A DNA stretch of 64,000 nucleotides, from the sequence record NC_014467.1; one strand, written 5' to 3'. Below the pieces are notes generated by a model, which saw nothing but the letters and a program-made list of their open reading frames with translations, did not search any database and was not told where the DNA came from. Position numbers and translations under genes: made by a program. Origin of the DNA: Escherichia phage RB16. Shown in pieces: positions 42,223-63,781 of the stretch. Position 1 is the first letter of the stretch, and each line of letters starts with the position of its first letter.

Positions 42223-44295
42223 ATGATCATGGATTATGAATCCATCATTGATGGAATTATGCAAGATTTTCAGCATCCATGTGATGCTGAAATACCTGCT
42301 GGATCGTACAGACGTATTATCTGGCAGGGACATACAGAAGACTACCCCGCTGTCGGGGTAGAATGGGATACTGAAATAATTCCGATCGGGGCGCATCTTT
42401 ACACACAATCCCCTTTCGGACAGAAAAGCGATCCGCTTCCGGTAGTTAACTCCCCTGGAACCGATCCAGGAACTGGGGAAGCAACTGGGATTCTTGTAGA
42501 AAAGATAGGTTATTATTTCGCCACACAACAGGAGATTGATGACTATATCACTTCTATCGGGGCAACAAAACTAACTGGTAATGATTGGTACGGCGCGGAT
42601 CTGACAAAAGCAAACCTGTATAAAAACCCTGGGGAACTCGCGATGTATAAGGTCGAGAACTCTGGAGGTTATTTGCTTACTTCTGGCCCACGTTGCGATC
42701 AACGCATCAGACAGGCATATAATGAGGACACAGGCGCGTTTACAAGCATTGATTACTATTGGAATGGTAATCGTATTGCCTACATGAAACACGACGACAC
42801 AGGGGCGCACAATTGCAAATACGTGGGTATGGTGGTTAACACCAACGCCGACACAAGCATTCCCCCTGTACCTCCGGCTATGCCGTCAATTTACGGGGCA
42901 TTGCCTAGCGAAATTTCAATGATGCGCTCCGGTTTGGGTTGTCTTCCTGCAACGGTAGGTTTTGCGTACACGAATATCAGTGATGCAATGCTATCCGCAT
43001 GGAACGAAACGCGCAAGTCGTTTAAGCTCGTGTTTGATATGCTTACGGGTATCACTAAAACGGGTTCCGGTGGTATCTCCACGATGTACGATGGTTTGTC
43101 TATCGCAATGGAGGAAATCACAGCAGGTGCTCTTGCGTTGTCACAGCAAGCATGGCAAGCCGCAATTAAGGTGTTCAAAGATATTATGTCTTCTGCGTTA
43201 AACATCGTAGGTGGTGCGTGGAACATGATAAAGAGTTTTTTACCGACTGTTACGATTCTGGGTGTTTCAATAAACATCTATGATTTGATTTTTGGTGATA
43301 ACTCAGTACAGACACTGAAAGATTCATTCCAAGCGATCATTGATGCTGGTACAGAAACCTATGAGAACGTCATAAACGCAATATACAGCGCTATAGGCAG
43401 TGCATACAATTATACCGTTGAATATGTCAAGGCTGGCGCTCGCGACCTCGTGGATGCTTGCAGTACGCTTTTTGACTGGTGTATTACCATGTTTCAGAAT
43501 GGTTGTGTTGCTCTGGTGGATCTGTACGGACGAATAATGCAAATCTGGGCTATGCCTCCAACGGTTCCAAACCCTTTATGGGCTGCTGTTCTGGCTATCC
43601 GTAACATTATGATGCAAATCAAACCGCTTGATGTGATCCTGGGTGGAAACTTCCCTGGGTTTACGGCAATGGATTTGTACCAAATGGCACAGGAGAAGGT
43701 GAAAGAGTTTATCGATCAGTCGTATGCGCAAATACGCGTGTATTATGATCAGGTTAAGGATCTGTATAACACACTGACTACACAGACACAAGAAAGGGAT
43801 GCGATTAAACGCAAGTTCGATCAATACCTAAACTGGATGTGGGAACCTGTAAAGGAAGCAACGACTGCTGCTTATCAGGCTGCACTTGATGCCGCTAACG
43901 CTGCTGTGAATGCGACTAAGGCCGCATATGAGGGAATCAAAGCACAGATTGCTAATCTGCAAAATGGGATGAAAGACACCTACAGCATGGCAATGGCTGA
44001 ACTCAAGAAACTGCCTGTAATGGCTCAGATTAACCAGTTCTTAGGTTACTGTGGGGTTGCATTCGATGACCTGTTAAAAACGTATGAGAACGCGCTGACG
44101 GGCGCACAATCGCTATATAAAAACTTTGTTGACAGTTCCCGCTCGTTTAAGGACACATGCAAGGTGATTTATAACCAGATTTGTACGCTTGCTCTAAGTA
44201 AGGTAACTCAATACGTAAACAAATTATTGTCATTAATCGGACTCGCGATCACATTCGGTTCAATTAGTGTTTGCGTCCCTATGGTTCAATACTAA
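42223..44295 (+). CDS. large hypothetical protein (690 aa) in the gp5-gp6 interval
   Basis: uninterrupted 2073-nt ORF starting 2 nt after gp5 stop; Pro-rich linker PPVPPAMPS; long Ala/Ile/Leu-rich C-terminal region; hydrophobic C-terminus. Confidence 0.7.
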   Translation: MIMDYESIIDGIMQDFQHPCDAEIPAGSYRRIIWQGHTEDYPAVGVEWDTEIIPIGAHLYTQSPFGQKSDPLPVVNSPGTDPGTGEATGILVEKIGYYFATQQEIDDYITSIGATKLTGNDWYGADLTKANLYKNPGELAMYKVENSGGYLLTSGPRCDQRIRQAYNEDTGAFTSIDYYWNGNRIAYMKHDDTGAHNCKYVGMVVNTNADTSIPPVPPAMPSIYGALPSEISMMRSGLGCLPATVGFAYTNISDAMLSAWNETRKSFKLVFDMLTGITKTGSGGISTMYDGLSIAMEEITAGALALSQQAWQAAIKVFKDIMSSALNIVGGAWNMIKSFLPTVTILGVSINIYDLIFGDNSVQTLKDSFQAIIDAGTETYENVINAIYSAIGSAYNYTVEYVKAGARDLVDACSTLFDWCITMFQNGCVALVDLYGRIMQIWAMPPTVPNPLWAAVLAIRNIMMQIKPLDVILGGNFPGFTAMDLYQMAQEKVKEFIDQSYAQIRVYYDQVKDLYNTLTTQTQERDAIKRKFDQYLNWMWEPVKEATTAAYQAALDAANAAVNATKAAYEGIKAQIANLQNGMKDTYSMAMAELKKLPVMAQINQFLGYCGVAFDDLLKTYENALTGAQSLYKNFVDSSRSFKDTCKVIYNQICTLALSKVTQYVNKLLSLIGLAITFGSISVCVPMVQY

Positions 44296-44318: not shown

Positions 44319-44996
44319 ATGAATTACGATAGGATATATAAAGCTCTTATAGATAAGCGGAGGAAAACTCCGCTTAAAGACGGATATAAGGAACATCATC
44401 ACATCATTCCTAAATCTATGGGCGGTAGTGATGATTTTGATAATATGGTGTATTTGACAGCGAGAGAACATTTCGTTGCGCATCTTTTACTCGCTCGTAT
44501 ACATGGTGGTAAGATGTGGTTTGCTGTTGCTATGATGTGTGGGCGTGGATCAAGTAGCGCGAAAGGCGTTGTCCCTACTTCTCGAATATATGAGTTAGCC
44601 AAAAAACGGGTAGCCAATGAAAGAAGTATATTGTTTTCTGGGAAATTACATCCATTATACGGAAAGCCTTGTACAGAACAACGAAGAAAACGCATAGCTG
44701 AAGGACGTAAAGGGAAAACGCATACTCAGGAAACGAAACAGAAAATGTCTGAATCGAAGAAAGGATATAAACATACTCAGGAGACGAAACAGAAAATGTC
44801 TGAGTCACGGAAGAGACAAACACCTCCTACTCTGGGTAAAAAGTTACCTTCTCCATCAATCGAAAAAAGAAAGAAACTTAGTGAGGCTATTAAAAATCAG
44901 CCAATCATCAAATGTCCATATTGCGGGTTAGAAAGTAACAGCAAAGGAAATATGGTGAGGTTTCATTTCGACAACTGCAAATATAGGAAACCATGA
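44319..44996 (+). CDS. HNH homing endonuclease (Mob-like)
   Basis: HNH core EHHHIIPKSMGGSDDFDNMVYLTAREHFVAH; internal duplicated HTQETKQKMSES motif. Confidence 0.8.
   Translation: MNYDRIYKALIDKRRKTPLKDGYKEHHHIIPKSMGGSDDFDNMVYLTAREHFVAHLLLARIHGGKMWFAVAMMCGRGSSSAKGVVPTSRIYELAKKRVANERSILFSGKLHPLYGKPCTEQRRKRIAEGRKGKTHTQETKQKMSESKKGYKHTQETKQKMSESRKRQTPPTLGKKLPSPSIEKRKKLSEAIKNQPIIKCPYCGLESNSKGNMVRFHFDNCKYRKP
44721..44807 (+). repeat. 35-nt near-perfect tandem duplication inside HNH gene
   Basis: CATACTCAGGA(A/G)ACGAAACAGAAAATGTCTGA(A/G)TC at 44721-44755 and 44773-44807. Confidence 0.8.
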
Positions 44997-55828: not shown

Positions 55829-58117
55829 ATGATTTCAAAACTTAACCCGTTACCAAAGATCCCGTTTGTTGATGGTGTCCCTTCGGACACCACACAAACC
55901 CCGATCAACTGGATAATTAACGGCGAAACTCTCGATGGTGCTAAAACCAAAGTCACTAACGAGGGTTCTTTAAACAGGTGCGGTGTTCTGGTACAAAAGA
56001 ACGCGGTGCAATTAGAAACCAACACCATTACACAGACTGCAAAAATCAACGAAGTTATCGATCAGGTTAACCTCATTAGTGAAAACCTCGCGGCTATTTC
56101 TGATGAAAGCGTGATTGACAAACTGGATCAGGTTGTTGCTGATGTAGAAGTGTTGAAAGTTGATATGACTGCGGTTCAAGGTTCTACTGCAAGCAATACC
56201 CTGAAAATCCAGGATCTCGATAAAGAGATCGGGACGTGGGACGCTTCAACAGATCCTAAACACCGTACCATTCGAAAAGATATTATTTTCCTGAAAGGGG
56301 AAATGGGTGCGTACCCTGGGTTTAACGAAAACGGCGACGTAGATCCGACATCAACGGGTTCCGGCATGAAATACAAAATCATGACGAACGCGCAAGCGAT
56401 TTCGATTCATGAAGGACGTATTACGCGCCTTGAAGATGATTGGGCTAACTCAGACGTAGGTCATTTAACTGATGAAGTAACCGATCTGCGTAACGAAATG
56501 GGGCCAAAACATTTAGCGACGTTTGAATCTGTATATGTTCGTCTAAACATTATCGGTACTGAGATCACTGGTATCAATTCCGAACTAACCAGCATCAACC
56601 AATATATCGGTCGTACTGGCACGGGTGGAACTGGTAGTATTTCTGCGCGTATGACTACAGCAGAATCGAATATCGCAACCCTGCAAACACAGATGAATGA
56701 TTCTGCTACTGGTGTATTACCTCGCGTAATTTCTTTGGAAAATGCTGTCGGTAACTCTCAGATCCCTGGTAGTATTCGTTACGACATCAGCGCAATCAAA
56801 CGTGACATCGGTGATATCAACATGATCGTCGGTGAATCAAGCGATGATGGTCTTCGTGGGGAAATGGCTCAGGTTATGACCGATATCGGTACTGATTCAC
56901 AGCCTACGAGCATCAAAGGCCGTTTGCTGAACGTTGAGAACACCCAACGTGACGATCACCAGAAACTGATTGACGTTGAATCTGTTGTTGGTAATACTTC
57001 AAGTGGACTCGTTGCGGCTAATATCGCGATGGGTAAAGCTGTTTACGGTGATGCAACGAGTTCTGATCCATTCCTGAAAGACGGTATTCAGAAAACAGCG
57101 CGTGACAGTAAAGCGGCTATCGGTGTAAACACAACCGGATCGGAAACAGGGATCTATAAACTGATTTCAGATTTGACTGCTCGTGTTGCTGCACTTGAAA
57201 GCGGTACTGGTGGCGAACTTGAACAACGTGTTTCTGATTTGGAAACCAATAAAGCATCGCATCAGGACGTTGCAAACGCATTGGTTCCGTATATTACCGA
57301 AGCGGAAGCAGATGTTAAGTACGAACCGAAGAAAATTCCGTTATCGTTTACGCAAAACCTTGTTAGGCGTGGCGATTATATCGAAGGTGATGACATTTCT
57401 TTCATGGTTACGGTAACAGGTGGTAAACTGCCTTATGTCTACCAGTGGAAGAAAGGAACCGCTGATGTAGGTACTAACGCATCGAGCATTCTGATCCAAA
57501 GCATTACCTCTGCCGACGCTGGCGTGTATAAAGTTGTTGTTACCGATGCAGACAACACCGTAATTACTTCTGACGAAGTGACGGTTGCTGTTTATCCGGT
57601 TCCTCAGTTTGATACTAACCTGGCTGACAAATCGGTGGTTGACGGTGATCCTCTGACTCTGGAAGTTGTATACAGCGGTGGTAAACCTCCGTACACTTAC
57701 GAATGGTTCAAAGATAACTCTGTTATCTCTGGGGAAACATCAGCAACATTTACCAAATCTGCTGTTACAAGCGCTGATGCTGGTGAATACTATGTTTCTG
57801 TAACTGACGCAATGAACAACCAAAACGATTCAGTGAAAGCAACCGTGACTGTAACACCTCGTCCGGCTCTTGCATTCACTACGGATCTGAGTGCTACTAA
57901 ATCATACAGCACAGGTGCTAACATGGATCTTGCTGTTGTCGTGACTGGTGGTAAAACACCATATACGTATAAATGGTTTAAAGACACTGCGGAAATTTCC
58001 GGTCAGACAGGCGCAAGCCTTACCACTGTAGCAGAAGATGGGGTGTATAAAGTCGAAGTGACGGATGCACTAACGACTAAAATAACATCAACTGAATGCA
58101 CGGTAACTGTGGCATAA
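55829..58117 (+). CDS. wac: fibritin (whisker/neck fibre, wac) with three C-terminal Ig-like repeats
   Basis: N-terminal LPKIPFVDGVP and coiled-coil segments as in T4 fibritin; C-terminus has three about 90-aa repeats. Confidence 0.85.
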   Translation: MISKLNPLPKIPFVDGVPSDTTQTPINWIINGETLDGAKTKVTNEGSLNRCGVLVQKNAVQLETNTITQTAKINEVIDQVNLISENLAAISDESVIDKLDQVVADVEVLKVDMTAVQGSTASNTLKIQDLDKEIGTWDASTDPKHRTIRKDIIFLKGEMGAYPGFNENGDVDPTSTGSGMKYKIMTNAQAISIHEGRITRLEDDWANSDVGHLTDEVTDLRNEMGPKHLATFESVYVRLNIIGTEITGINSELTSINQYIGRTGTGGTGSISARMTTAESNIATLQTQMNDSATGVLPRVISLENAVGNSQIPGSIRYDISAIKRDIGDINMIVGESSDDGLRGEMAQVMTDIGTDSQPTSIKGRLLNVENTQRDDHQKLIDVESVVGNTSSGLVAANIAMGKAVYGDATSSDPFLKDGIQKTARDSKAAIGVNTTGSETGIYKLISDLTARVAALESGTGGELEQRVSDLETNKASHQDVANALVPYITEAEADVKYEPKKIPLSFTQNLVRRGDYIEGDDISFMVTVTGGKLPYVYQWKKGTADVGTNASSILIQSITSADAGVYKVVVTDADNTVITSDEVTVAVYPVPQFDTNLADKSVVDGDPLTLEVVYSGGKPPYTYEWFKDNSVISGETSATFTKSAVTSADAGEYYVSVTDAMNNQNDSVKATVTVTPRPALAFTTDLSATKSYSTGANMDLAVVVTGGKTPYTYKWFKDTAEISGQTGASLTTVAEDGVYKVEVTDALTTKITSTECTVTVA

Positions 58118-58152: not shown

Positions 58153-59076
58153 ATGATTACGAACAATCCTGAACAATTGAAGGATGAAATTCTTCGTCGT
58201 CTGGGCGCACCAATCATCAAAATCGAAATCACACAAGACCAGATTTACGATTGCATTCAACGCGCACTGGATCTGTATGCGGAATATCACTACAACGGAA
58301 CAAACAAAAGTTACATTATCCTTACGTTAGGCGAAGACAACCCGCGAAACGTATTTGATTTGAGTAAAGAACATATTTTCGCGGTTACAAAAGTATTGCG
58401 TACAAATATCGGTTCATTGGTTTCTATGGACGGTACAGCGGTTTATCCGTGGTTTACTGATTTCCTGATGGGGCTTACTGGTGGTTCTCTGGGCGGTCGC
58501 TGTGCATCAAGCGTGTACGGTATGAATGCATATGGCGCGGATCTGGGGTATTTTACACAGATGATGTCATATCAACGTTCAATGCAAGAGTTGCTGGCTC
58601 CATTACCTGATTACTGGTACAACGACGACACTGGTCAGTTTTGTGTATGGGGTAAAGTCAACAACGGTGATATTATTGTCATTGAAGTGATGGTAAGATC
58701 CTTTGTCGATGTTCCTAGTGCCGTAGGAAGCGTTGCAGGATACGCTACAGCGGGTTCTAACGCAGTAGAAGACCAATCCATAGCCGACATCTACGATAAC
58801 CCGTATAACGCGGTTGTGGGCGGTGTACGAGCGGGACAGGGTACAACTGTTACTGGTGGAACCTCTGCATATAACAACCGTTGGGTAAAAGACTACTCAA
58901 CCGCGCTGGTAAAAGAAATCAACGGGCAAATTCTGGCTAAGTTTCAGGGTATGCAATTGCCTGGTGGTGTTGCTCCAGATGGAACACGACTGATTCAGGA
59001 AGCGGAAACCAAATTACAAGGATTGCGCGACGAACTGATTTCTATGTCTGACGCAGTTCCTATTATTATGGTGTAG
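58153..59076 (+). CDS. 13: neck protein gp13
   Basis: 307 aa; T4 synteny. Confidence 0.85.
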   Translation: MITNNPEQLKDEILRRLGAPIIKIEITQDQIYDCIQRALDLYAEYHYNGTNKSYIILTLGEDNPRNVFDLSKEHIFAVTKVLRTNIGSLVSMDGTAVYPWFTDFLMGLTGGSLGGRCASSVYGMNAYGADLGYFTQMMSYQRSMQELLAPLPDYWYNDDTGQFCVWGKVNNGDIIVIEVMVRSFVDVPSAVGSVAGYATAGSNAVEDQSIADIYDNPYNAVVGGVRAGQGTTVTGGTSAYNNRWVKDYSTALVKEINGQILAKFQGMQLPGGVAPDGTRLIQEAETKLQGLRDELISMSDAVPIIMV

Positions 59077-59084
59077 GGGGAATA

Positions 59085-59831
59085 ATGCAAAACTGGGATG
59101 AAAGTTTATTCGCTCAGTTGTCAACGGGGGAGGGAGTCGATCGCAACTTAAAGGATCAAGTCACTAACCCGTATGTAAACTGGTACAAATATAACCCAAC
59201 ACAACAGCTACATGATTCACTTACAGCAGAATCAATCCAGATGAAATCACCTGATATGTATTATGTCAGACGTGAATTTGTGAATATAGATAAAATTCTG
59301 GGTGAAGACCGAGAGTCTAAATTCACGAAATCGTGGAAGATCGCTGCATATATTGAATCATATGCTAACTATGAAGGACAGCGGGACTTCTTTAGAAAAT
59401 TCGGGTTGAGTTCTAACGACGAAATGACGCTGGTACTAAATCCGCGTTTATTTGCACATCAAACTGATGGTGGTATTCCGGTGCTGGGGGATTTGGTTTA
59501 TTTCCCAATGGATAACAGCTTGTTTGAAATTACATGGGTGGAAGCAGATCCGTTCTATCAGTTCGGTGATCGTCCTCAACGTAAAATCAACCTGGCTAAA
59601 TTCATCTACACGGGCGAAGAATTGGCTCCTGAATTGCAGCGAAACGAAGGAATCCATATCGAACCTGATGCAGAACTGGATCTTGAACCTATTCGAAATC
59701 TTGACGGGCTGGCAGATATTAACATTGAACAGTACGAAGAAGACAAAGAATTTGAAAGAGAAGGTGACGAGTTTATCGAATCTTTTGATGTTGTCAACGG
59801 TCGCGGTTCTCCGTTTGCAAGTCTACCATAA
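59085..59831 (+). CDS. 14: neck protein gp14
   Basis: 248 aa; T4 synteny. Confidence 0.85.
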   Translation: MQNWDESLFAQLSTGEGVDRNLKDQVTNPYVNWYKYNPTQQLHDSLTAESIQMKSPDMYYVRREFVNIDKILGEDRESKFTKSWKIAAYIESYANYEGQRDFFRKFGLSSNDEMTLVLNPRLFAHQTDGGIPVLGDLVYFPMDNSLFEITWVEADPFYQFGDRPQRKINLAKFIYTGEELAPELQRNEGIHIEPDAELDLEPIRNLDGLADINIEQYEEDKEFEREGDEFIESFDVVNGRGSPFASLP

Positions 59832-59835
59832 ATAA
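59828..59835 (+). promoter_or_regulatory. late-promoter-like box CATAAATAA
   Basis: ATAAATAA overlapping gp14 stop, upstream of hairpin pair. Confidence 0.35.
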
Positions 59836-59842
59836 GTTAAAT

Positions 59843-59880
59843 GGGTATAGGCGGAAGTCTATACCCTCTTCAAAGAGGGG
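59843..59880 (+). promoter_or_regulatory. two alternative hairpins, the second sequestering the SD of the downstream T5orf172-like gene
   Basis: GGGTATAG-GCGGAAGT-CTATACCC (59843-59866) and CCCTCTT-CAA-AGAGGG (59864-59880); SD AGAGGGG lies in the 3' arm. Confidence 0.5.
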
Positions 59881-59888
59881 TTTATGAT

Positions 59889-60614
59889 ATGGTTGCAAAA
59901 ATCTCTATAGAACAACGAGAACATCAATTAAAAGAACGTTGTGCGGAATTAGAACTATCTTTTGATGGATGGGTAGACCAATCAGCGATCACAAAATATT
60001 CAAAGTTTTATGTTGTTTGCAGTAAAGGACATAGAACAGAAAAACAGATCAAACCATTTGTCAACAAAAGTCGTCCAAACGGATGTTATTTGTGTTCTCC
60101 TAAGATGAAAATATCAAAGGAAAACAGAATCGAGGAAATCAAAACTCTTGCAGATTCAATTGGATATACATTCATAGATTTCGTTGGGGTGTATAAAGAT
60201 GCTCACACAAAAATATCAATGGTTTGCGATAAAGGCCATAATTGGGATGTAAGTATAGTTGCTTTTCTCAATCAAGGTCATCGCTGTAAAAAATGCGCAA
60301 CGTCTGGGTTCAATACGAACAAACCAGCATACGTATACGTACAATCACTATCTGGAAAATTTCTGAAATTTGGGATAACCAACAGAACACCAAAGAAAAG
60401 AATGTGTGCGCAATCAAATAAATCCGTTTATAAACACGAACTGGTTTATCAAAAATTATTCGATAAAGGTATTGATGCAATGAGTATTGAACAGAAGATC
60501 AAACAATCTCTTGTTTGTGGCGTAGTTGATAAATCAGATATGATGGATGGATATACAGAAACAACAGATATATCCAATTACGATAAACTGTTGAATATTA
60601 TAGAAGGAGTATAA
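59889..60614 (+). CDS. T5orf172/GIY-YIG-like domain protein with duplicated zinc-finger modules (free-standing homing-endonuclease-like)
   Basis: two CxKGH...CxxC modules then YVYVQSLSGKFLKFGITNRTPKKR (T5orf172-type GxxKxGxT...R); inserted between genes 14 and 15. Confidence 0.5.
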   Translation: MVAKISIEQREHQLKERCAELELSFDGWVDQSAITKYSKFYVVCSKGHRTEKQIKPFVNKSRPNGCYLCSPKMKISKENRIEEIKTLADSIGYTFIDFVGVYKDAHTKISMVCDKGHNWDVSIVAFLNQGHRCKKCATSGFNTNKPAYVYVQSLSGKFLKFGITNRTPKKRMCAQSNKSVYKHELVYQKLFDKGIDAMSIEQKIKQSLVCGVVDKSDMMDGYTETTDISNYDKLLNIIEGV

Positions 60615-60616
60615 AA

Positions 60617-61434
60617 TTGTTTGGATACTGGTATAATAGTTCGCTGCGTAACTACATTGTTCTTATGGGACAATTGTTTAACCATGTTCAGGTTAAAAGA
60701 GTACGCGGCGATCAAGAAAAATTTATTAAGGTTCCAATTACCTACGCATCGAAAGAGAAATTTCTTGCTTCCATGAATAAACTCAACTATGCGTATAGTC
60801 AGGAAAACGTAGCAAAGACGGAAACCATTTTACCGCGAATGAACCTATCACTGGTCGATCTGCAATATAACGCAATTCGTAAAACCAGCATAGCGGTCAA
60901 CCAAAAAATGACGCAATTGCAATCACCCCGCAAGACGATCACACAGTTTAACCCTGTGCCTTATCGTTTAATTTTTGAACTGGGTGTGTATACGCGATAT
61001 GAAGACGACATGTTTCAGATCGCAGAACAGATTTTACCGTATTTTCAACCACATTTCAACTGCAAGATTACCGAACTGCATAAGAACGAAATCACAGTTG
61101 ACCGAGACATCAAAATCAGTCTCCAGTCGGTTGCACCAGATACAACGTTTGAGGGCGAAGCATCACAGCGCCGACATGTTGAATGGTCTTTCATGTTCGA
61201 ATTGCAGGGTTATCTGTACCCGCCTGTTACTGACGTTAAGGGCGAAATCAGAACAGTATACACGGATTTCTTTGCCAATATGAACCCATTGGATAAAGAT
61301 AACTTTGAATCCGTTGATAGTCAAGCCGATCCGGTAGATCTGCCTTTGCAGGATTACACGGGCGAAGAATATATTCAGACGTATTCGCACGATAAGCCGA
61401 TCCCGTCTGGTGATGAACCTCCTAAGCCGAGGGA

Positions 61435-61438
<4 letters not shown>
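60617..61438 (+). CDS. 15: tail sheath stabiliser / connector protein gp15
   Basis: MFGYWYNSSLRNY... parallels T4 gp15 MFGYFYNSSFRRY...; apparent TTG start at 60617 after AGGAGT. Confidence 0.9.

Positions 61439-63781
<2,343 letters not shown>

What the first reader, a model, noticed from the sequence alone, without database searches (positions are those of the whole stretch)
59828..60614. T5orf172-like gene inserted between neck gene 14 and gene 15, with its ribosome-binding site buried in a hairpin
The insert encodes two CxKGH...CxxC modules followed by a GIY-YIG-related T5orf172-type motif (LSGKFLKFGITNRTPKKR). Upstream, two mutually exclusive stem-loops (59843-59866, 59864-59880) overlap a late-promoter-like CATAAATAA box, and the second sequesters the SD AGAGGGG. 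This is the classic T4 arrangement for homing-endonuclease-type genes translated only from late transcripts that start inside the hairpin.
Basis: partly seen in the sequence, partly recalled or inferred. Interest (0 to 1): 0.48.

Follow-up and report, generated by a model that had tools for sequence, protein, structure and literature searches.

The report
Mobile endonuclease gene between phage genes 14/15
This is a selfish, mobile nuclease gene of an already described phage type, recently copied between related T4-like phages into the gap between two structural genes; the special 'hidden ribosome-binding site' control proposed for it is not supported.

Summary
The window is an RB43-like T4-type phage (Pseudotevenvirus; 97% identical to phage Lw1). 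The ORF at 59889-60614 (241 aa) is real. It has two CapR-type zinc-finger modules (Pfam E 5e-18) and a C-terminal domain with a GIY-YIG fold and motifs. That domain misses Pfam T5orf172/MUG113, but many of its relatives hit them weakly.

It behaves as a free-standing homing endonuclease gene. Many relatives have an empty 14/15 junction. Others carry an unrelated MobE-type HNH gene, or deleted remnants of one, at the same site. The insert is 99-100% identical between phages whose flanking genes are only 86-91% identical, and the identical tract runs about 95 nt into gene 15.

The regulatory reading fails:
- Hairpin 1 belongs to the phage backbone and is present in empty sites.
- The CATAAATA box lies upstream of both stems, so a late transcript would contain them.
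- Hairpin 2 is out-competed in silico (pair probability 0.04 or less).
- Predicted ribosome-site accessibility is ordinary, and diverged copies lack the hairpin.

Verdict: an ordinary new member of a known kind, and a clean example of two endonuclease families competing for one site. Interest is low to moderate.

The parts
59827..59834 (+). CATAAATA late-promoter-like box. It contains the gene 14 stop codon TAA (59829-59831) and is backbone, not insert.
   Evidence: TAAATA is kept at this spot in all relatives, including empty sites and the diverged contigs L013 and L014. CATAAATA also sits where RB43 has a predicted TATAAATA late promoter upstream of gene 3 (window 36785-36778 minus strand). 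Nolan et al. predicted no late promoter at this junction in RB43.
59843..59866 (+). Hairpin 1: GGGTATAGGC-GGAA-GTCTATACCC, a 10-bp stem with a GNRA loop. It is a backbone RNA structure between the box and the gene 15 leader.
   Evidence: Energy -15.3 kcal/mol, pair probability 0.99. Present in empty-site GAP161. Three stem substitutions in relatives all give G-U wobbles on the + strand RNA, and the loop stays GNRA.
59864..59879 (+). Potential hairpin 2 (CCCTCT-TCAA-AGAGGG), whose right arm is the SD. It shares CCC with hairpin 1.
   Evidence: Energy -7.8 to -9.1 kcal/mol in isolation, but pair probability 0.04 or less when hairpin 1 is present. The palindrome CCTCTTC(G/A)AAGAGG occurs in both endonuclease types on GAP161-like backbones. 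It is absent in RB43, L013 and L014.
59867..60604 (+). Inserted cassette, relative to the empty GAP161 allele. It replaces about 12 nt (aacaacccatac) of the native gene 15 leader.
   Evidence: Junction comparison. Boundaries are ambiguous by a few nt.
59884..59910 (+). Out-of-frame ATG followed by 8 codons (MIWLQKSL*). This ATG is the start codon of the MobE-type gene in relatives and is retained in the shared leader.
   Evidence: The leader is identical up to ...TTTATGATAT in MobE-type and CapR-type cassettes.
59889..60614 (+). Endonuclease gene, 241 aa plus stop.
59907..60302 (+). Two CapR-type zinc-finger modules (about aa 7-70 and 77-138), ligand pattern C-x3-H ... C-x2-C. Presumed DNA-binding region.
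   Evidence: Pfam PF21817, E 5.2e-18, two stretches. The AF2 model shows a repeated helix plus three strands plus helix. CapR cysteines are needed for DNA binding in PMC8096241.
60309..60611 (+). C-terminal GIY-YIG-fold domain of T5orf172/MUG113-like type (aa 141-241). Presumed nuclease.
60605..60609 (+). Gene 15 Shine-Dalgarno AGGAG. It is the native AGGAA of the empty allele, now lying inside the last codons of the endonuclease gene.
   Evidence: alignment.
60617..61438 (+). Gene 15 (tail sheath stabiliser). It starts with TTG here, ATG in empty alleles, and ATT at the same position in MobE-type phages.
60617..60710 (+). Tract of gene 15 that travels with the cassette. It is 100% identical to JC03 and leE, then identity falls to 84-88%. 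Presumed co-conversion tract.
   Evidence: sliding identity.
60652..60685 (+). Cluster of about 12 mostly synonymous differences (plus Ala to Gln) between endonuclease-linked and empty gene 15 alleles. Candidate target and immunity patch.
   Evidence: The assignment as a target is inference only.

Best explanation
The feature is a free-standing homing endonuclease gene. It sits in the 5' untranslated leader of gene 15 of an RB43-like T4-type phage.

The protein has two N-terminal CapR-type zinc-finger modules, which presumably read a DNA target. Its C-terminal domain belongs to the T5orf172/MUG113-like branch of the GIY-YIG nucleases and presumably cuts.

Inferred mechanism, by analogy with characterised T4 seg/mob genes and ICP1 T5orf172 genes: in a mixed infection the enzyme cuts the endonuclease-free allele near the 5' end of gene 15. 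Repair from the endonuclease-carrying genome then copies the cassette together with about 95 nt of gene 15.

The cassette has no promoter of its own. It lies just downstream of a backbone late-promoter-like box and a stable backbone hairpin. It is co-oriented with the late genes and ends 2 nt before the gene 15 start, leaving gene 15's native ribosome-binding site intact inside its last codons.

Its 5' leader (SD plus first ATG) is the same as that of the unrelated MobE-type HNH gene that occupies this site in other relatives. One cassette therefore probably replaced the other by recombination through the shared leader and gene 15.

Shown: domain content, fold, insertion polymorphism, discordant identity, the co-travelling flank and the shared leader. 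Inferred: nuclease activity, the target, homing, and late expression. The upstream hairpins are not a T4-style late-transcript switch.
For: Identity of the locus:
- The flanks are gp14 (PF11649, E 8.5e-86) and gp15 (PF16724, E 1.7e-97).
- The region is 97.4% identical to phage Lw1, where the gene is annotated 'endonuclease'.

Domains:
- CapR x2 in Pfam and PHROG 681 'endonuclease', E 1.5e-62.
- AF2 model pLDDT 86, with beta-beta-alpha-beta-alpha topology at aa 147-207.
- Foldseek against viral models finds full-length matches to proteins named CapR homology, homing endonuclease, GIY-YIG and T5 Orf172.
- The spacing Y150-x10-F161-x9-R171 equals I-TevI Y6-x10-Y17-x9-R27 (my recollection of the I-TevI sequence).
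- Y150, K160, G162, R171, E201 and E224 are invariant across 97 relatives.
- The C-terminal profile finds 2826 cluster representatives. Of 97 proteins scanned (the window protein plus 96 relatives), 33 hit MUG113, 11 hit T5orf172 and 72 hit CapR.

Mobility:
- Empty junctions exist.
- A MobE-type gene with a NUMOD3 motif occupies the same site in RB43, Miller, HMGUkp1 and others.
- Deleted MobE remnants are present in Fraggle_ER53 and phi1_146002.
- The cassette is 99.2-100% identical in nucleotides while gp13, gp14 and gp15 are 86-91% identical.
- The identity break lies about 95 nt into gene 15.
- 73%-identical copies occupy the same site in two diverged contigs.
- The architecture and behaviour match published T5orf172 homing endonuclease genes (PMC10448857, PMC8096241).
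Against: - The protein itself gives no Pfam T5orf172, MUG113 or GIY-YIG hit at E up to 1, and no NCBIfam hit.
- The MUG113 hits in the ten relatives checked individually are all below Pfam's curated cut-off.
- The second Tyr of the GIY-YIG motif is Phe here.
- No cleavage, target site or homing has been demonstrated. A domesticated DNA-binding role, as for PLE CapR, is not excluded.
- Near-identity of the cassette could also arise from ordinary recombination without endonuclease action.
Confidence: 0.8

Rival explanations
1. Translation of the endonuclease is blocked on read-through RNA because hairpin 2 buries the SD. It is released only on late transcripts that start inside the structure, as for T4 I-TevI, segB and Aeh1 mobE.
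For: - The right arm of hairpin 2 is the SD.
- A late-promoter-like CATAAATA lies 39 nt upstream of the SD, and CATAAATA replaces TATAAATA at the orthologous gene 3 promoter.
- In this window only, TIR opening energy falls from 11.6 kcal/mol (read-through) to 6.2 kcal/mol (start at 59841).
- The paradigm is real for other T-even endonuclease genes (PMC2988022).
Against: - The predicted start, about 59840-59841, is upstream of both stems, so late RNA keeps them.
- Hairpin 2 pair probability is 0.04 or less because hairpin 1 (-15.3 kcal/mol) takes the shared CCC.
- The SD core stays paired, with codons 4-6, in both transcript forms.
- The relief is absent in Lw1 and small in JC03 and leE.
- The opening energy is unexceptional among 18 late genes.
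- No hairpin 2 exists in RB43, L013 or L014.
- The neighbouring genes on this strand are late genes, so there is no obvious early read-through to silence.
Confidence: 0.07
2. The leader throttles endonuclease translation constitutively rather than by timing. Ribosomes bind the SD and mostly start at the ancestral MobE ATG (59884, 5 nt from GAGG). They translate an 8-codon out-of-frame peptide across the true start (59889). Weak local pairing of the SD (hairpin 2 or codons 4-6) lowers output further.
For: - ATG 59884 is the annotated start of the MobE-type genes, with the same leader.
- It is out of frame here and stops at 59908-59910.
- SD pairing with 59899-59906 has probability 0.86-0.97.
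- Low expression is typical of homing endonucleases (PMC2988022).
Against: - This rests on sequence only.
- The diverged copies L013 and L014 have a single start (GTG or ATG) and no upstream ATG, so it is not a family feature.
- The opening energy of about 6 kcal/mol is low.
Confidence: 0.3
3. The protein is a domesticated DNA-binding regulator or exclusion factor, like the satellite protein CapR, and not a mobile nuclease. The gene spreads only by ordinary recombination.
For: - CapR itself is a repressor derived from such endonucleases (PMC8096241).
- There is no Pfam nuclease hit for this protein.
- The gene is retained at 73% identity at the same site in diverged phages.
Against: - The complete C-terminal GIY-YIG-fold domain is kept, with invariant Tyr, Arg and Glu across thousands of relatives. 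CapR lacks that domain.
- The presence/absence pattern and the 99-100% vs 86-91% identity contrast, with a flank tract, are the signature of homing.
Confidence: 0.1

Closest known systems
T5orf172-family homing endonuclease genes with repeated CapR/DUF723/DUF4379 zinc-finger domains (Vibrio phage ICP1 gp165, gp174 etc.; Barth et al. 2023, PMC10448857; Netter et al. 2021, PMC8096241)
   Same: - N-terminal repeated CapR-type zinc fingers plus a C-terminal GIY-YIG-superfamily domain.
- Located next to essential structural genes.
- Sits at a boundary of sequence identity between related phages.
   Different: - The C-terminal domain of this protein does not reach Pfam T5orf172 or MUG113. It belongs to a large sister group (2826 cluster representatives) that those models catch only partly.
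- The zinc ligands are C-x3-H...C-x2-C rather than CxxC...CxC.
- The host is a T4-type coliphage lineage.
Phage T5 gene T5.141 and RB49ORF238c/239c-like 'endonuclease' genes; PHROG 681
   Same: 36% identity over 98% of the length, with the same CapR x2 architecture. T5.141 is inserted between the tail assembly chaperone and tape measure genes.
   Different: Different insertion site and phage family. None has been characterised experimentally, to my knowledge.
T4 free-standing seg (GIY-YIG) and mob (HNH) endonuclease genes, including the RB43 'mobE' at this very site
   Same: A promoter-less cassette in an intergenic region, co-oriented with its neighbours, with presence/absence polymorphism and co-conversion of the flank (PMC2988022).
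   Different: The DNA-binding modules differ (CapR zinc fingers rather than NUMOD/HTH), and the nuclease domain is C-terminal rather than N-terminal as in the seg proteins.
Hairpin control of I-TevI, segB and Aeh1 mobE, and the seg43(25) arrangement in Aeromonas phage 25
   Same: A stable hairpin lies just upstream of the endonuclease RBS and near a late-promoter-like box. [quoted passage not shown]
   Different: The promoter box is upstream of the whole structure, not inside it. The stable hairpin belongs to the backbone and is present without any endonuclease gene.

Membership tests
GIY-YIG nuclease superfamily | Core fold: three-stranded sheet flanked by helices (beta-beta-alpha-beta-alpha) | tested here: met
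GIY-YIG nuclease superfamily | Conserved Tyr (GIY), Tyr/Gly (YIG), Arg and catalytic Glu at canonical spacing | tested here: met
   Y150, K160-F161-G162, R171 and E201 are invariant in 15 and 97 homologues, except F161, which is invariant only among the 15 close homologues. The spacing equals I-TevI Y6/Y17/R27 (I-TevI numbering from memory). The second Tyr is Phe. Correspondence of E201 to E75 is inferred from its position in the helix after strand 3.
Pfam T5orf172 (PF10544) / MUG113 (PF13455) | Match to the family HMM | tested here: not met
   No hit at E up to 1 for this protein. Among the 97 proteins scanned (the window protein plus 96 relatives whose C-terminal domain matches the profile at E 1e-22 or better), 33 hit MUG113 (best 5.6e-6) and 11 hit T5orf172 (best 7.1e-5). 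The hits inspected lie on the C-terminal domain and are below the curated cut-off. It works like, and is related to, T5orf172, but is not a member by the Pfam model.
CapR homology domain (PF21817) | HMM match above the curated cut-off, with four zinc ligands per module | tested here: met
   65.4 bits against a cut-off of 24.2, two stretches. Ligands are CSKGH...CYLC and CDKGH...CKKC. Zinc and DNA binding were not tested.
Free-standing homing endonuclease gene | Presence/absence polymorphism at one precise site among close relatives | tested here: met
   Same junction empty in GAP161, CfP1, IME-CF2 and others. It is occupied in the window and in seven other phages: Lw1, JC03, leE, Cronuts, phi1_146010, phi1_146015 and UPEC03.
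Free-standing homing endonuclease gene | Cassette much more similar than its flanks, with a co-converted flank | tested here: met
   99.2-100% vs 86-91% identity. A 100% tract extends to about 60710 and then falls to 84-88%.
Free-standing homing endonuclease gene | Site-specific cleavage of the empty allele and super-Mendelian inheritance | not testable with these tools
   Needs enzyme assays and phage crosses.
T4-type late-transcript translational switch (I-TevI, segB, Aeh1 mobE) | Late promoter placed so that late RNA lacks the 5' arm of the RBS-sequestering hairpin | tested here: not met
   The box at 59827-59834 predicts a start near 59840-59841, which is 23 nt or more upstream of the left arm (59864). 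No motif lies inside 59843-59880.
T4-type late-transcript translational switch (I-TevI, segB, Aeh1 mobE) | Very stable structure sequestering the RBS, conserved among copies | tested here: not met
   Hairpin 2 probability 0.04 or less. Opening energy is 6-12 kcal/mol, within the range of other late genes. The hairpin is absent in RB43, L013 and L014. There are no stem substitutions, so covariation gives no information.

The most novel reading that the evidence does not exclude
The shared leader (palindrome CCTCTTC-R-AAGAGG, SD and ATG) is a portable expression adaptor. It lets unrelated endonuclease families (HNH MobE-type and CapR/GIY-YIG-type) swap as cassettes at one site. The retained ancestral ATG now acts as an overlapping upstream ORF that throttles the newcomer. 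The TTG or ATT start codon and the 60652-60685 patch of gene 15 are immunity alleles left by successive invasions.
Probability: 0.15. Interest if true: 0.45.

Novelty: new member of a known kind. Interest (0 to 1): 0.27.

Why it matters
This family of zinc-finger plus T5orf172-like endonuclease genes is abundant in phages. The protein hits 813 phage records, and the nuclease-domain profile finds 2826 cluster representatives. Almost none of the family has been studied outside Vibrio phage ICP1.

This locus offers cultured, closely related coliphage, Cronobacter and Klebsiella phages in all four states: empty, CapR-type, MobE-type and decayed MobE. Homing, competition between endonuclease families and target immunity could therefore be tested directly.

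For annotation, the C-terminal domain is a GIY-YIG-fold nuclease that Pfam misses. The neighbouring gene 15 starts at TTG here and probably at ATT in MobE-type phages, where several records truncate it by 16 codons.

Tried and rejected
- NCBIfam: no hit for the protein.
- A profile of the C-terminal domain against PDB sequences: no hit at E up to 10.
- Foldseek against afdb50: library not available.
- Rfam on 59700-60000: only a chance-level snoRNA match, E 0.55.
- Exact TATAAATA: absent from the + strand of the whole window. I therefore derived the local late-promoter forms from RB43's published predictions ([T/A]ATAAATA) and from orthologous sites (CATAAATA, CTAAATA). The published list has no late promoter at the RB43 14/15 junction.
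- Hairpin 2 as an intrinsic terminator: the scan flags it. I rejected this because hairpin 1 pre-empts it and the essential gene 15 lies downstream with no promoter-like motif inside the cassette.
- ATG 59841 as the start (257 aa, as annotated in phi1_146010): rejected. It has no SD, lies in hairpin 1, and the homologues start at MVAK.
- A long-range pairing of CAUAAAU with GUUUAUG as a switch: it is specific to this window and not conserved.
Full report
**What the window is.** The 59000-61500 region is 97.4% identical to Escherichia phage Lw1 and 89-93% identical to other RB43-like T4-type phages (genus Pseudotevenvirus) of Cronobacter, Klebsiella, Enterobacter and Citrobacter. The neighbours are wac, gp13, gp14 (59085-59831; PF11649, E 8.5e-86), the ORF in question, gp15 (60617-61438; PF16724, E 1.7e-97), gp16 and gp17.

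**Check of the observation.**
- The ORF is real. The in-frame ATG at 59889 gives 241 aa. Lw1, JC03 and leE annotate this start, and 73%-identical homologues begin MVAK/MVAR.
- The quoted motifs are present.
- Hairpin 1 (59843-59866) is a 10-bp stem with a GGAA tetraloop, -15.3 kcal/mol.
- Hairpin 2 is 6 bp with a 4-nt loop (59864-59879), -7.8 to -9.1 kcal/mol in isolation. Its right arm is the Shine-Dalgarno sequence (SD) AGAGGG, and it shares CCC with hairpin 1.
- The CATAAATA box is at 59827-59834 and includes the gp14 stop codon. It lies 8 nt upstream of hairpin 1 and does not overlap the stems.
- The motif is not enriched in the window.

**What belongs to the insert.**
- The insert-free phage GAP161 reads ...CCATAAATAcgttatatGGGTATAGGCGGAAGTCTATACCCaacaacccatacAGGAAAATAAAATG(gp15). 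The box and hairpin 1 are therefore backbone sequence.
- The cassette is about 59867-60604. It replaces about 12 nt of the native gene 15 leader.
- The endonuclease ORF runs into the native gene 15 SD (AGGAA in the empty allele, AGGAG here) and stops 2 nt before the gene 15 start.
- Three stem substitutions of hairpin 1 in relatives all give G-U wobbles on the + strand RNA, and the loop stays GNRA. This suggests a conserved RNA structure of the gene 15 leader. That is few events, so it is only suggestive.

**The protein: zinc-finger modules.** Pfam finds two CapR homology domains (E 5.2e-18). It gives no T5orf172, MUG113 or GIY-YIG hit at E up to 1. NCBIfam finds nothing. PHROG 681 'endonuclease' matches at 1.5e-62. 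CapR is a satellite-encoded repressor whose zinc-finger domain is shared with the N-termini of T5orf172 homing endonucleases of phage ICP1, and its cysteines are needed for DNA binding (PMC8096241). Repeated CapR, DUF723 or DUF4379 fingers upstream of a T5orf172 domain are the common architecture of that family (PMC10448857).

**The protein: C-terminal domain.**
- The AF2 model (pLDDT 86) has beta-beta-alpha-beta-alpha topology at aa 147-207.
- Foldseek against viral models gives full-length matches to proteins named CapR homology, homing endonuclease, GIY-YIG and T5 Orf172.
- Y150, K160, G162, R171, E201, G221 and E224 are invariant in 97 homologues.
- The spacing Y150-x10-F161-x9-R171 equals that of I-TevI Y6/Y17/R27. 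The I-TevI numbering is from memory.
- A profile of this domain finds 2826 cluster representatives at E 0.001 or better.
- Of 97 proteins scanned (the window protein plus 96 relatives), 72 carry CapR, 33 hit MUG113 (best 5.6e-6) and 11 hit T5orf172 (best 7.1e-5). The MUG113 hits inspected lie on the C-terminal domain.

The domain is nevertheless a sister group that the Pfam models catch only partly.

**Evidence that the gene is mobile.**
1. Many relatives have an empty junction.
2. RB43, Miller, HMGUkp1, Taquito and others carry an unrelated gene at the same site. It is annotated MobE-like homing endonuclease and has a NUMOD3 motif.
3. Fraggle_ER53 and phi1_146002 carry internally deleted remnants of that gene.
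4. The cassette is 99.2-100% identical in nucleotides among the window, Lw1, JC03, leE and phi1_146010, while gp13, gp14 and gp15 are 86-91% identical.
5. Against JC03 and leE, the 100% tract runs from about 59885 to about 60710, which is about 95 nt into gene 15. Identity then drops to 84-88%. On the left it drops at the leader.
6. Within that tract, 60652-60685 differs from empty alleles at about 12 mostly synonymous positions plus Ala to Gln.
7. Copies at 73% amino-acid identity sit at the same gp14/gp15 site in two diverged contigs.
8. MobE-type relatives also abut gene 15 in Acinetobacter phages.

This is the pattern described for free-standing homing endonucleases and for nuclease genes at boundaries of genetic exchange (PMC2988022; PMC10448857). 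Cleavage, the target and homing itself are inferred, not shown.

**The shared leader.**
- On GAP161-like backbones, both endonuclease types have the same leader, CCCTCTTC(G/A)AAGAGG(AT/GG)TTTATGATAT.
- The MobE-type ORF starts at the first ATG.
- In the CapR-type cassette that ATG (59884) is out of frame and opens an 8-codon ORF. The real start is the overlapping ATG at 59889.
- The diverged CapR-type copies have a different leader and a single start.
- The simplest reading is that one cassette replaced the other through the leader on the left and gene 15 on the right.
- The gene 15 start is ATG in empty alleles and in L013 and L014, TTG in the window's clade, and ATT at the same position in MobE-type phages.

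**The regulatory claim.** In the T4 paradigm, the late promoter sits so that late RNA lacks the 5' arm of a very stable RBS-sequestering hairpin (PMC2988022). This locus does not fit:
- With TATAAATA at -13 to -6 (PMC1524935), the box predicts a start near 59840-59841. That is upstream of both stems.
- In an 80-nt local transcript, hairpin 1 forms with probability 0.99. The SD instead pairs weakly with codons 4-6, at probability 0.86-0.97.
- The opening energy of the translation initiation region (-17 to +13) is 11.6 kcal/mol on read-through RNA. That is 6th of 18 late genes, range 6.4-17.2, and gp13 and gp14 are higher.
- A transcript starting at 59841 gives 6.2 kcal/mol. This relief comes from a long-range pairing of CAUAAAU with GUUUAUG. 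It is absent in Lw1 (6.3 vs 6.1) and small in JC03 and leE (7.7-7.9 vs 6.1).
- RB43, L013 and L014 have a backbone hairpin followed by an unsequestered SD. This resembles seg43(25) of Aeromonas phage 25.
- The genes upstream on this strand are all late genes, so there is no obvious early read-through to silence.

**Whether the box is a promoter.** This remains open. RB43's published predicted late promoters read [T/A]ATAAATA, and none was predicted at this junction. However, CATAAATA and CTAAATA occur in the window at sites orthologous to RB43 predictions. TAAATA is also kept at the gp14 stop in every relative, including the diverged ones.

**Verdict.** The gene call and the insertion are supported. 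The translational-switch interpretation is not. The element is a new, uncharacterised member of a described kind. Relatives are already annotated 'endonuclease' or 'putative GIY-YIG nuclease family protein'. Its main value is as a tidy natural system in which two endonuclease families alternate at one site.

Noticed in passing
window 44319-44996 (+): A second endonuclease gene (225 aa; NUMOD3 E 3e-15, HNH E 2.7e-5). It lies between the RB43 ORF205w homologue and gene 6, just downstream of a CTAAATA box at 44292. RB43 has only an 84-nt spacer there, with a predicted TATAAATA late promoter. The placement (late-gene leader, co-oriented) matches the 14/15 cassette.
   Followed up: partly
window 60617; L002 about 3022; L004 about 3003: Gene 15 starts with TTG here and apparently with ATT in MobE-type phages, where the MobE stop codon TAG is in frame one codon upstream. 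The first 16 codons stay conserved, yet several records annotate a truncated gene 15 from the downstream ATG.
   Followed up: partly
L009 2385-2558; L010 2385-2692: Klebsiella phages Fraggle_ER53 and phi1_146002 carry internally deleted remnants of the MobE-type gene at the same site. They keep the endonuclease-linked gene 15 patch. This looks like decay after invasion.
   Followed up: partly
window 39867, 44292, 46948 (+); 36785-36778 (-): Exact TATAAATA is absent from the + strand of the whole window, including the late-gene block. Sites orthologous to RB43's predicted late promoters read CTAAATA or CATAAATA instead. The late-promoter consensus of this phage may be looser than T4's.
   Followed up: partly
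window 57300-58117 (+), C-terminus of wac: The 762-aa whisker (fibritin) protein ends in three tandem repeats of about 90 aa, with motifs GGK(L/P)PY(V/T)Y(Q/E/K)W(K/F)K...SA(D/E)AG(V/E)Y. These look like Ig-like domains. GAP161 and JC03 have a shorter wac (2040 vs 2289 nt).
   Followed up: no
L012 2501-3253 (phage T5 gene T5.141): A 36%-identical homologue with the same CapR x2 architecture sits between the tail assembly chaperone and tape measure genes of T5, preceded by an annotated terminator. It is another structural-gene junction occupied by this family.
   Followed up: partly
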